Below are positions 1,533 through 5,843 of a DNA stretch of 6,816 bases, in pieces (within the stretch, counting starts at the first letter, position 1; each line of letters opens with the position of its first letter). The stretch lies in the UHGV virus genome UHGV-0373539. One strand, given 5' to 3'. The position numbers and the translations under genes are program-made. The notes beneath the pieces were generated by a model. It made no database searches. It worked only from the letters and a program-made list of their open reading frames with translations, and had not been told where the DNA came from. This DNA comes from a virus.

Positions 1533-1657
1533 CCCCGTTTAAATCGTCAAGCTATAAATCGTGGGGGCCCCTCTGGGGTTCCGATTTATTGCTTTACGAC
1601 TCTCCCCCCCAATAACCTTGTATCGGGTGATGGTTCACGTAGTGGGCCATCGCCCTG
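1533..1657 (+). promoter_or_regulatory. Minus-strand (complementary-strand) replication origin, Ff-like hairpins B/C region
   Basis: Extended similarity to the f1 origin as recalled from f1-ori phagemids. It includes a 33-nt stretch GGGTGATGGTTCACGTAGTGGGCCATCGCCCTG (1625-1657) that matches f1 exactly, and upstream CCCCGT..AAATCG..GGGTTCCGATTTA.TGCTTTACG similarity. The 33-mer folds as a hairpin (1625-1633 / 1647-1655). Confidence 0.7.
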
Positions 1658-3864: not shown

Positions 3865-4119
3865 ATGAGCGTTATTACTAAAGTTGCTGCCGCTAAAAAC
3901 AAAATCGTTGTTGGTGCTGGCCTGATGATGGCTTCTGCTGGCGCGTTCGCTGTTGATGACGGTACTACTACCGCTACCAGCTACGCTACTGAAGCAATGA
4001 ACAGCCTGAAATCTCAGGCAACTGATCTCATTGCTCAGACGTGGCCTGTTGTTACTGTCGTTGTCGGTGCTGGTCTGGCAATTCGTCTTTTCAAGAAGTT
4101 TTCTTCCAAAGCTGTTTAA
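3865..4119 (+). CDS. VIII: Gene VIII major coat protein precursor
   Basis: 84-aa ORF with SD AAGGA 8 nt upstream. Signal peptide ends ..SAGAFA. Mature part has an acidic N-terminus, a hydrophobic core and the basic C-terminus RLFKKFSSKAV, closely resembling IKe-type pVIII as recalled (..YATEAM.SLK.QA.DLI.QTWPVV...LFKKFSSKAV). Confidence 0.93.
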   Translation: MSVITKVAAAKNKIVVGAGLMMASAGAFAVDDGTTTATSYATEAMNSLKSQATDLIAQTWPVVTVVVGAGLAIRLFKKFSSKAV

Positions 4120-4138
4120 TTCCACAGCGTTGTATTTT

Positions 4139-4164
4139 GGGGCGCTATTGCGCCCTTTTTTTTT
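4139..4164 (+). terminator. Rho-independent terminator downstream of gene VIII
   Basis: GGGGCGC (4139-4145), loop TATT, GCGCCC (4150-4155), followed by a run of 9 T (4156-4164). Same position as the strong central terminator of Ff phages. Confidence 0.85.
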
Positions 4165-4188
4165 AACTATATTCAGCAAGGCTTATCC

Positions 4189-5493
4189 GTGAAAAGAAAA
4201 ATAATAGCCATATCTTTATTTTTATATATCCCTTTGTCTAATGCTGATAATTGGGAGTCTATTACTAAAAGTTATTATACTGGCTTCGCTATGTCTAATA
4301 CTGTTGAATCAAAAGATCAGGATGGTAAAACAGTTCGTAAAGAGGTTATAACTCCGGCTGATTTAACTACCGCTTGCAATGATGCTAAAGCCTCTGCGCA
4401 AGATGTATTTAATAGTATTAAGCTAACATATTCTGGTATTTGGCCTGATTCTCAGTTTCGCCTTGTAACTGGTGATACCTGTGATTACAACGGCTCGCCT
4501 GGTGAAAAAACTGAAAGCTGGTCTATTCGCGCTCAGGTTGAAGGTGATATTCAGCGTACCGTTCCCGATGAAAAACCCGCAGAACAGACACCAGAAGAAA
4601 TCTGTGAGGCAAAACCTCCAATTGATAACACTTTTAATAATGTCTCTCGCGGTGAAGATGGCAATTATTATATTAACTATAATGGCTGCGAATATTCCGC
4701 TACTGGTGTAACTGTCTGTCAATCTGATGGAACTGTCTGTTCCTCCTCTGCTTGGAAGCCAACTGGTTACGTCCCCGAATCTGGAGAATCTCAATCATCT
4801 CCTGTTAACGGTGGTGGCTCTGGTGAAACTGGCGGCGAAACTGGCGGCGGTGAAACTGGCGGCGAAACAGGTGGCGGTTCTTCTGGCGGTGATTCCGGTG
4901 GATCTACTGGCGGTGGTTCTACTGGCGGCGGTTCCTCCGGTGGTTCCTCTGGCGGTTCTGGTAATTCTCTCACCAAAGAGGATGTAACCGCAGCTATTCA
5001 TGATGCCTCCCCTTCTATTGCTGATGCTGTAAAGGATTCTCTGACAGAAGAAAATGACCAGTACGACAATCAGAATCAAGCCGATGAACAATCCGCTAAA
5101 GCGTCTGCATCTGTCTCTAATGCTCTCTCAGATGGTATGCGCGGCGTTGGTAATTTCGTTGACGATCTTGGCGGTGAATCTTCTCAGTACGGTACTGGTA
5201 ATTCAGAAATGGATCTCTCTGTCAGCATGGCTAAAGGTCAACTTGGTATTGATCGCGAAGGTCATGGTTCTGCTTGGGAAGCCTTTTTAAGCGATGGTGC
5301 TTTACGTCCCTCCATTCCTACTGGTCATGGCTGTACTGATTTTGTCATGTTTCAGGGTTCTGTTTATCAGCTTGATATTGGCTGCGATAAATTAGGCGAT
5401 ATTAAGTCTGTATTATCTTGGGTTATGTATTGCCTTACCTTCTGGTATGTATTCCAGTCTGCTACTTCATTACTTCGTAAAGGTGAACAATAA
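4189..5493 (+). CDS. III: Gene III adsorption protein (pIII), GTG start
   Basis: 434-aa ORF starting at GTG (Ff gene III also starts with GTG). Signal peptide [19 protein letters not shown]. Internal segment [16 protein letters not shown]...[24 protein letters not shown] resembles the Ff N1 (TolA-binding) domain as recalled (ESCLAKPHTENSFTNV...YANYEGCLWNATGVVVCTGDETQC). Gly-rich linker follows; C-terminal ..[26 protein letters not shown].. resembles the Ff pIII C-terminal domain. Confidence 0.93.
4811..4962 (+). repeat. Glycine-rich linker of pIII encoded by imperfect tandem repeats (GGTGAAACTGGCGGC units, then GGT/GGC-TCT/TCC units)
   Basis: Protein [51 protein letters not shown]. Repeated GAAACTGGCGGC units at 4825-4860 are visible in the DNA. 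Confidence 0.85.
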
Positions 5494-5843
5494 TGCCAGC
5501 TTTATTAGGTATTCCGGCTTTAATTCGTTTCATAATGGGGCTTGTGCCTCTTGCTATTGGTTATTTTGCTAAGTTCTTAGGCAAAATTATTACCCGTAAT
5601 GGCTTGATGGCTGCTGCCTTAATTGGTGCGATCCTTTCATTTGTCACCTTAGCAATTCAGCTTTTAGGCGATGCTTTATCTTCTGCAATGGGCGGAATGC
5701 CTGCTGATTTTGGCAATTTAATGTCCTCTGTATTACCTGATGGCACAACAACTTGTATTACAGTAATTATGACTACAAGAATAGCGGTCTTTGTTTTCGA
5801 TATTAAAGATCGCTTACTCGGCATTGCCAATAAGGTAATTTGA
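5493..5843 (+). CDS. VI: Gene VI minor coat protein
   Basis: 116-aa hydrophobic protein [13 protein letters not shown].. resembling M13 pVI (MPVLLGIPLLLRF..., ..FIFDVK..) as recalled. ATG overlaps the gene III stop (TAATG). SD AAAGGTGA upstream. Confidence 0.92.

What the first reader, a model, noticed from the sequence alone, without database searches (positions are those of the whole stretch)
4811..4962. Tandem nucleotide repeats encoding the pIII glycine-rich linker
Near-identical GGTGAAACTGGCGGC and GGTGGTTCYTCTGGCGGT units are repeated several times. Such repeats are prone to slippage or recombination and generate linker-length variants. The antisense ORF here (Pro-rich, 4791-4976) is a mirror-image artefact of the repeats.
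Basis: seen in the sequence. Interest (0 to 1): 0.2.

Follow-up and report, generated by a model that had tools for sequence, protein, structure and literature searches.

The report
Repeat-encoded glycine linker of phage g3p
This is the well-known flexible glycine-rich tether in the attachment protein of an IKe/I2-2-type filamentous phage; it is encoded by short in-frame DNA repeats that gain and lose whole units among relatives, which is real but already documented.

Summary
The window is a complete-size genome (6,816 nt) of an I2-2-like Lineavirus, a filamentous phage. Positions 4810-4962 encode residues 208-258 of the attachment protein g3p (gene III, 4189-5493). This is a Gly/Ser/Thr/Glu tract between the TolA-binding domain and the C-terminal virion-anchor domain.

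The repeats are real. There are four GAAACTGGCGGC(GGT) units, two 15-nt units and two 12-nt units. However, they are no stronger than the peptide repeat plus its narrow codon set predicts (P=0.18).

Among 62 close g3p relatives the N- and C-terminal parts keep constant length, while the linker ranges from 45 to 86 aa, and the differences fall on whole repeat units. Relatives with the window's own linker type lack 39, 15 or 12 nt at exactly these units. Two otherwise 100%-identical genes differ only by a perfect 39-nt tandem duplication.

The antisense proline-rich ORF is a composition artefact.

Published work already reports this polymorphism in UPΦ phages, and cites a 1997 paper for IKe. Verdict: correct, ordinary and already known.

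Side observations: gene III is a recombinational mosaic on a ~98% I2-2 backbone, and linker length has a strong mode at 63 aa.

The parts
4189..5493 (+). Gene III, encoding attachment protein g3p (434 aa, GTG start)
   Evidence: ORF. Pfam PF21443 (8.9e-66) and PF05357. PDB 4eo0, 4eo1 and 8b3o. 86.7% nt identity to I2-2 gene III and 84.1% to IKe. Lies between gVIII (3865-4119) and gVI (5493-5843), as in IKe.
4189..4245 (+). Signal peptide (19 aa, [19 protein letters not shown])
   Evidence: Identical to residues 1-19 of IKe g3p, which the IKe record annotates as the signal peptide. Inferred by homology.
4249..4563 (+). N-terminal pilus-binding domain (residues 21-125)
   Evidence: PF21443 over residues 21-125. 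Matches PDB 4eo0 over residues 20-128. pLDDT 82-94.
4576..4785 (+). TolA-binding (N1-type) domain (residues 130-199)
   Evidence: Matches PDB 4eo1 over residues 130-199, E=3.8e-37. PF05357. pLDDT 81-89.
4810..4962 (+). Glycine-rich linker core (residues 208-258), the finding itself
   Evidence: pLDDT 25-28 and no secondary structure. This is the only part of g3p whose length varies among relatives.
4825..4878 (+). Four tandem ETGG(G) units: GAAACTGGCGGC / GAAACTGGCGGCGGT / GAAACTGGCGGC / GAAACAGGTGGCGGT
   Evidence: TRF period 27 x2.1 at 93%. The relatives P0016, P0019 and P0021 carry a single unit here, a 39-nt difference.
4897..4926 (+). Two 15-nt units GGTGGATCTACTGGC / GGTGGTTCTACTGGC (GGSTG)
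   Evidence: TRF period 15 at 94%. P0016 and P0019 lack exactly one unit.
4930..4953 (+). Two 12-nt units GGTTCCTCCGGT / GGTTCCTCTGGC (GSSG)
   Evidence: P0018 is 12 nt shorter in this part.
4969..5490 (+). C-terminal domain (residues 261-434), which anchors g3p in the virion tip and membrane
   Evidence: Residues 224-433 match f1 pIII (PDB 8b3o) residues 218-405. Constant at 174 aa from LTKED in all relatives.
4791..4976 (-). Antisense Pro-rich ORF (61 aa), a composition artefact and not a gene
   Evidence: Listed. Its stop-free span of 68 codons is below the 77.9 +/- 11.2 seen in synonymous recodings of gene III, and the span tracks linker length in relatives. No promoter-like site serves it.
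5020..5040 (.). Approximate recombination breakpoint, about 60-75 nt 3' of the linker
   Evidence: The window is 94-98% identical to prophage gene III (P0016/19/21) over 4585-5034 and 61% over 5035-5124. Fine map.

Best explanation
Positions 4810-4962 encode the single glycine-rich linker of an IKe/I2-2-type g3p. It is an unstructured Gly/Ser/Thr/Glu tether joining the two N-terminal receptor-binding domains (pilus-binding, then TolA-binding) to the C-terminal domain embedded in the virion tip. The peptide is a run of 4- and 5-residue units, so the DNA is a run of in-frame 12-, 15- and 27-nt direct repeats. During replication of the phage genome, misalignment between these repeats adds or removes whole units. 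The misalignment could be strand slippage or unequal homologous exchange. The product stays in frame and still works, because a tether tolerates length change. Shown here: identity of the protein and its domains, disorder of the tract, repeat anatomy, restriction of length differences to this tract, and unit-sized indels in relatives. Inferred: the molecular route (slippage versus recombination), and the tolerance of different lengths, which rests on the existence of natural variants and on a paper title cited second-hand.
For: Identity. Disorder: pLDDT 25-28 and coil for ~208-260, against 81-94 for residues 21-200. Repeat anatomy. Length variation confined to the linker: in 62 Lineavirus g3p sequences the N-terminal part (193 aa, or 178 with a later start call) and the C-terminal part (174 aa) are essentially constant (one exception, P0081, at 178 aa), while the linker takes 12 lengths from 45 to 86 aa. 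Unit-sized indels in the window's own linker type: 39 nt (three ETGG(G) units), 15 nt (one GGSTG unit) and 12 nt. Recent event: the P0072 and P0075 genes are 100% identical apart from one perfect 39-nt tandem duplication, and P0075 differs from IKe by two 15-nt units. The short forms recur in independent assemblies: P0016, P0095 and P0019; P0075 in two runs. The more distant UPΦ-like clade carries GGGES in 3-9 copies and GGGDT in up to 5. [quoted passage not shown] The same paper cites Bruno & Bradbury 1997 for a natural longer Gly-rich region in IKe (PMC7307601). In f1, pIII linkers are flexible and invisible by cryo-EM (PMC10175506).
Against: The window's DNA repeats are no more similar than the peptide repeat plus codon usage predicts, so the window sequence alone gives no sign of recent duplication. 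All 15 members of the window's >=90% cluster share the 63-aa length, and 18 of 31 distinct linkers are 63 aa, so change is infrequent or is filtered. Some length differences between lineages may have arrived by recombination with diverged alleles, since gene III is mosaic, rather than by local slippage. No read-level data were available.
Confidence: 0.9

Rival explanations
1. The DNA repetition is only a by-product of selection for a Gly/Ser/Thr-rich peptide written with a few preferred codons. The tract is not especially mutable, and length differences among relatives are rare, old events.
For: The synonymous-shuffle null is not exceeded. There is no length variation among 15 sequences of the window's own cluster. 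There is a strong 63-aa mode.
Against: Twelve different lengths occur among close relatives, and all differences lie in this tract. Indels match unit boundaries. Two genes identical elsewhere differ by one perfect 39-nt duplication. Copy-number variation was reported among nearly identical UPΦ isolates.
Confidence: 0.07
2. Linker-length differences are imported mainly by homologous recombination between diverged gene III alleles (module shuffling), not generated locally by slippage.
For: Gene III is a mosaic. The window is ~98% I2-2 elsewhere but 73-88% across 4405-5304. Its N1 domain and linker match prophage alleles at 94-98%, with a sharp break near 5034. The window gene III is an outgroup to I2-2 and IKe: 0.876 and 0.848 identity, against 0.95 between those two.
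Against: The P0072/P0075 difference is a clean local duplication with no flanking substitutions. The 39-, 15- and 12-nt differences within the window's linker type lie in otherwise 94-98% identical sequence. The mapped breakpoint is outside the repeats. This route is complementary to slippage rather than exclusive of it.
Confidence: 0.2
3. The antisense Pro-rich ORF (4791-4976, minus strand) is a real overlapping gene.
For: The ORF is open for 61 aa from a TTG start. Open antisense spans exist in all relatives.
Against: The open span is shorter than in synonymous recodings of g3p (68 against 77.9 +/- 11.2 codons) and simply scales with linker length. No promoter-like site lies upstream. All annotated genes of IKe and I2-2 are on the plus strand.
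Confidence: 0.01
4. The tract is a structured single-stranded DNA or RNA element, with the coding repeat secondary.
For: ssDNA folding z-scores of -3.1 and -3.5 for the window tract.
Against: MFE structures have ensemble frequencies of about 0-0.0005 in five of the six tracts (0.02 in the 96-nt P0016 tract), with centroid energies near -5 kcal/mol in those five. Shapes differ in every relative and z ranges from -1.1 to -3.5. There is no Rfam family at gathering score and no terminator-like site. Indels of 12-69 nt are tolerated.
Confidence: 0.02
5. The length variants in public data are short-read assembly artefacts.
For: Most relatives come from short-read assemblies, and repeats can be collapsed or expanded.
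Against: The whole tract is about 150-220 nt with units of 39 nt or less, which is within a read length. The same variants recur in independent assemblies. All variants stay in frame. The polymorphism is reported from cultured isolates.
Confidence: 0.04

Closest known systems
Glycine-rich region of phage IKe g3p (P03663; NC_002014 gene III)
   Same: Same protein, same domain order and same position between the TolA-binding and C-terminal domains. Same total length (434 aa; 63-aa linker from YVPE to LTKED). Same kind of GGxT/GGGSx units. A longer natural variant is on record, cited second-hand via PMC7307601. An 84-aa form is deposited as 'gene III protein [synthetic construct]' (P0082).
   Different: The internal arrangement differs. 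The window has four ETGG(G) units and no KDGDTGGTGEGGSDT start. Ungapped identity of the 156-nt core is 43% to the I2-2 core (itself 96% identical to IKe's), against 81% with balanced gaps. Gene III nucleotide identity to IKe is only 84-85%.
Phage I2-2 g3p (NC_001332)
   Same: The genome backbone is ~98% identical to the window outside gene III. g3p is 434 aa with a 63-aa linker.
   Different: The middle of gene III is only 73-88% identical, with the linker lowest at 73%. The window's N1 domain and linker are instead 94-98% identical to alleles of integrated Salmonella prophages.
UPΦ prophage g3p with variable GGGES / GGGDT repeats (PMC7307601)
   Same: Homologous g3p at ~50% identity. A Gly-rich repeat lies at the same position. 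Repeat copy number is the main source of gene III variation.
   Different: The 5-aa units there are much more regular and reach higher copy numbers, 3-9. Those phages integrate at dif, whereas the window is an episomal I2-2-type genome.
Ff (M13/fd/f1) pIII glycine-rich linkers
   Same: Flexible Gly/Ser/Glu repeats tether the receptor-binding domains to the C domain, and they are disordered in cryo-EM (PMC10175506). The N1 and C domains are homologous.
   Different: Ff has two linkers and the domain order N1-N2-C. IKe-type g3p has the pilus-binding domain first, a short Pro/Glu hinge, then N1 and a single Gly-rich linker.

Membership tests
IKe/I2-2-type (Lineavirus) attachment protein g3p | N-terminal pilus-binding domain (PF21443; fold of PDB 4EO0) | tested here: met
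   PF21443, E=8.9e-66, residues 21-125. 4eo0, E=3.1e-60.
IKe/I2-2-type (Lineavirus) attachment protein g3p | TolA-binding N1-type domain following the pilus-binding domain (PF05357; PDB 4EO1) | tested here: met
   4eo1, E=3.8e-37, residues 130-199. PF05357 at 31 bits, above the 20.8 cut-off.
IKe/I2-2-type (Lineavirus) attachment protein g3p | Single glycine-rich linker between N1 and the C-terminal domain | tested here: met
   Residues 208-258, aligned with the IKe, I2-2 and PEar linkers. Predicted disordered.
IKe/I2-2-type (Lineavirus) attachment protein g3p | C-terminal domain homologous to Ff pIII C domain, with a hydrophobic C-terminal anchor | tested here: met
   8b3o match over residues 224-433. 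The last ~40 residues are nearly invariant across the family.
IKe/I2-2-type (Lineavirus) attachment protein g3p | Gene order gVIII - gIII - gVI - gI - gIV in a ~6.8-kb inovirus genome | tested here: met
   Window ORFs. 95.4% identity to I2-2 over 99% of the window. Annotated neighbours in relatives.
IKe/I2-2-type (Lineavirus) attachment protein g3p | Mediates adsorption to conjugative pili and TolA-dependent entry | not testable with these tools
   Function is inferred from homology only.
Repeat-number-polymorphic g3p linkers (as reported for UPΦ and IKe) | In-frame short tandem units at the DNA level | tested here: met
   Periods 12, 15 and 27, all multiples of 3.
Repeat-number-polymorphic g3p linkers (as reported for UPΦ and IKe) | Close relatives differ by whole repeat units in this tract and not elsewhere in the protein | tested here: met
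Repeat-number-polymorphic g3p linkers (as reported for UPΦ and IKe) | Length heterogeneity arising within a population or over a few generations | not testable with these tools
   No reads were available. It is stated for IKe only second-hand (PMC7307601), and the primary paper is not held. The window's own >=90% cluster shows none.

The most novel reading that the evidence does not exclude
Tether length may be under stabilising selection in episomal, conjugative-pilus-specific Lineaviruses. Three linker architectures (window type, IKe/I2-2 type, P0007 type) can only be aligned with balanced insertions and deletions, yet all have exactly the same 156-nt core and 63-aa linker. Integrated prophage alleles with the window's linker type are 45-50 aa. 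If so, repeat slippage would act as a length-tuning device whose output is filtered to match the reach needed between pilus or TolA and the virion tip. In addition, the linker together with the conserved block just downstream would be the junction at which receptor-binding modules are exchanged.
Probability: 0.25. Interest if true: 0.35.

Novelty: already known. Interest (0 to 1): 0.13.

Why it matters
It matters little beyond correct annotation. The tract is the textbook flexible tether of the filamentous-phage attachment protein, and its repeat-number polymorphism is published for close relatives. There are two practical points. Gene III length differences between Lineavirus isolates should be read as linker indels, not as frameshifts or new alleles. 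The antisense ORF should not be annotated. The length mode at 63 aa and the mosaic structure of gene III are modest leads for anyone studying host-range evolution in pilus-specific inoviruses or designing IKe-type display vectors.

Tried and rejected
(1) Within-sequence evidence for recent DNA duplication: a synonymous-codon shuffle inside the linker gave P=0.18 for the longest repeat, with no excess codon identity at repeat offsets. The claim therefore rests on comparative data only.

(2) Antisense gene: rejected by the recoding null and by the lack of a promoter-like site.

(3) Structured ssDNA/RNA element: z-scores were modest, but the ensembles are diffuse and the folds are not conserved. 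Rfam found nothing at gathering score.

(4) The genome-contig scan with alignment A1 used only signal-peptide patterns. It returned one irrelevant 39-residue hit in Croceibacterium, so that scan was wasted.

(5) The E. coli complete-genome and plasmid collections added only one distant record and one close record.

(6) Bruno & Bradbury 1997 could not be read, and a second literature search found no other source. It is cited second-hand only.

(7) My first length table (Lineavirus row) used a faulty anchor pattern and dropped the 60-62-aa and 64-aa forms. It is superseded.

(8) The 419-, 400/401- and 441/442-aa proteins are start-codon or partial-gene calls, not linker variants.

Full report
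WHAT THE WINDOW IS
The 6,816-nt window is the size of a whole filamentous-phage genome. It matches phage I2-2 (Lineavirus, Inoviridae) over 99% of its length at 95.4% identity. It matches a 6,814-nt Klebsiella pneumoniae 'plasmid' at 95.1%; that record is evidently a phage replicative form. The ORF at 4189-5493 (GTG start, 434 aa) is gene III. It carries Pfam G3P_pilus-bind (residues 21-125, E=8.9e-66) and Phage_Coat_A. It matches the solved IKe g3p pilus-binding domain (4EO0, residues 20-128) and TolA-binding domain (4EO1, residues 130-199), and the f1 pIII C domain (8B3O, residues 224-433). It aligns end to end with g3p of I2-2, IKe and the Erwinia PEar phages.

THE OBSERVATION
In codon register the Gly-rich tract is 4810-4962 (residues 208-258).
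- GGTGAAACTGGCGGC occurs exactly twice and once more with one mismatch, against 0.01 expected.
- GGTGGTTCYTCTGGCGGT is exact once, with four looser copies.
- Tandem Repeats Finder reports periods of 27 (x2.1, 93%), 15 (x2.2, 94%) and 12.
- The natural description is four ETGG(G) units at 4825-4878, two GGSTG units at 4897-4926 and two GSSG units at 4930-4953.

The repeats are well above chance for DNA of this composition. I then held the peptide fixed and shuffled synonymous codons within the tract. Under that null the observed longest exact repeat (20 nt) and the codon identity between copies were not unusual (P=0.18). The DNA repeat is therefore what a repeated peptide written with GGT/GGC, TCT/TCC, ACT and GAA must look like. 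The window by itself does not show recent duplication.

STRUCTURE AND ROLE
An AlphaFold2 model built from 41 homologues is confident for the two N-terminal domains (pLDDT 81-94, residues 21-200). It gives the tract the lowest confidence in the protein (25-28) with no secondary structure. The C domain is poorly modelled as a monomer, which is expected for a part that folds in the pentameric tip. In f1 the equivalent linkers are flexible and invisible in cryo-EM maps (PMC10175506). IKe-type g3p differs from Ff pIII in domain order. It has the pilus-binding domain first, then a short Pro/Glu hinge ([12 protein letters not shown]), then the TolA-binding domain, then this single Gly-rich linker.

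THE LENGTH-VARIATION TEST
A search of 5.8 billion proteins found 53 homologues, and cluster look-ups added more. Across 62 Lineavirus g3p sequences:
- The part before YVPE is 193 aa (or 178 where a later start was called).
- The part from LTKED is 174 aa (178 in one sequence, P0081).
- The linker between them takes 12 different lengths from 45 to 86 aa.

At the DNA level, relatives carrying the window's own linker type differ from it by whole units:
- P0016, P0019 and P0021 have one GAAACTGGCGGT unit where the window has four, a 39-nt difference.
- P0016 and P0019 also lack exactly one 15-nt unit.
- P0018 is 12 nt shorter in the GSSG part.

The cleanest case is in the IKe-type lineage. The gene III sequences encoding P0075 and P0072 are 100% identical except for one 39-nt indel, which is a perfect tandem duplication (a 48-nt exact repeat at offset 39). 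P0075 in turn differs from IKe by two 15-nt units. The short forms recur in independent assemblies, which argues against assembly error. In the more distant UPΦ-like clade, GGGES occurs in 3-9 copies and GGGDT in up to 5.

The literature already says this. [quoted passage not shown] I could not read the primary paper.

LIMITS
All 15 sequences in the window's >=90% cluster have the 63-aa linker, and 18 of 31 distinct linkers are 63 aa. Change is therefore either infrequent or filtered. I cannot separate strand slippage from unequal homologous exchange, and I had no read-level data.

THE ANTISENSE ORF
The ORF at 4791-4976 on the minus strand exists. Its stop-free span of 68 codons is below the 77.9 +/- 11.2 obtained when g3p is recoded synonymously. 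In relatives the span simply tracks linker length. No promoter-like site serves it, and all annotated IKe and I2-2 genes are on the plus strand.

OTHER RIVALS
ssDNA folding gives z of about -3 for the window tract. However, the ensembles are diffuse, the shapes differ in every relative, and z ranges from -1.1 to -3.5. There is no Rfam family at gathering score and no terminator-like site.

BEYOND THE FINDING
- Gene III is a mosaic. Outside it the window is ~98% identical to I2-2, but identity falls to 73-88% over 4405-5304 and is lowest in the linker.
- The window's gene III is an outgroup to I2-2 and IKe: 0.876 and 0.848 identity, against 0.95 between those two.
- The TolA-binding domain and linker (4585-5034) are 94-98% identical to gene III of integrated prophages in Salmonella. 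Identity then drops to 61% from about 5035, roughly 70 nt past the linker, in the conserved start of the C domain.
- The nearest relative (P0001) differs from the window mainly in the pilus-binding domain, at 90-92%.
- The window, IKe/I2-2 and P0007 linker cores are all exactly 156 nt although they align only with balanced gaps. Ungapped identity between the window and I2-2 is 43%, against 81% gapped. This hints at selection on tether length, but I did not test it against a null.

VERDICT
The feature is an ordinary, already documented property of this protein family.

Noticed in passing
window 4350-5304 (gene III), breakpoint near 5020-5040: Gene III is a recombinational mosaic on a ~98% I2-2 backbone. 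The N1 domain and linker are 94-98% identical to integrated Salmonella prophage alleles, then 61% just past the linker. The pilus-binding domain is the main difference from the nearest relative, P0001.
   Followed up: partly
window 4810-4962 versus L001, L002 and L021 linkers: Three different repeat architectures share exactly the same core length (156 nt; 63-aa linker) despite needing balanced indels to align. Integrated prophage alleles are 45-50 aa. This may reflect stabilising selection on tether length.
   Followed up: partly
window 1570-1646: The window has 77 nt absent from the I2-2 reference record, in the intergenic region. Window 1545-1657 is ~85% identical to f1 positions 5625-5737, which from memory is the minus-strand origin region. 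This is either a deletion in I2-2 or an insertion here.
   Followed up: no
L016 1719-3880 and L020 97-2293: Integrated Lineavirus-like prophages in Salmonella (one on a 1.28-Mb contig) carry two HTH_3 repressor-like genes and a TIR-domain gene (PF10137 CAP12-PCTIR_TIR) upstream of gene II. This may be defence cargo on a filamentous prophage.
   Followed up: no
window 4124-4177, 5770-5780 and several intergenic sites: There are several 1-nt indels relative to the I2-2 record (X14336 / NC_001332), some of them close together. They could be errors in the reference record rather than real differences; this was not checked.
   Followed up: no
NZ_CP183160.1 (E. coli strain 572, 14,488-nt 'plasmid'); NZ_CP132687.1 (Klebsiella pneumoniae, 6,814 nt): Lineavirus replicative forms are deposited as plasmids of clinical isolates. 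The 14.5-kb record holds two gene III copies and is probably a dimer.
   Followed up: no
P0082 (AAW65363.1, 'gene III protein [synthetic construct]'): This IKe gene III has an 84-aa linker containing a duplicated [24 protein letters not shown] block. It also has a 17-residue non-Gly stretch (TVTLRTGKVVLILPVNR) that looks like a frameshifted reading of the linker start.
   Followed up: no
window 4795-5091 (minus strand): A second antisense ORF of 98 aa in another frame also spans the linker. Its stop-free span (110 codons) is within the synonymous-recoding null of 88 +/- 56.
   Followed up: yes
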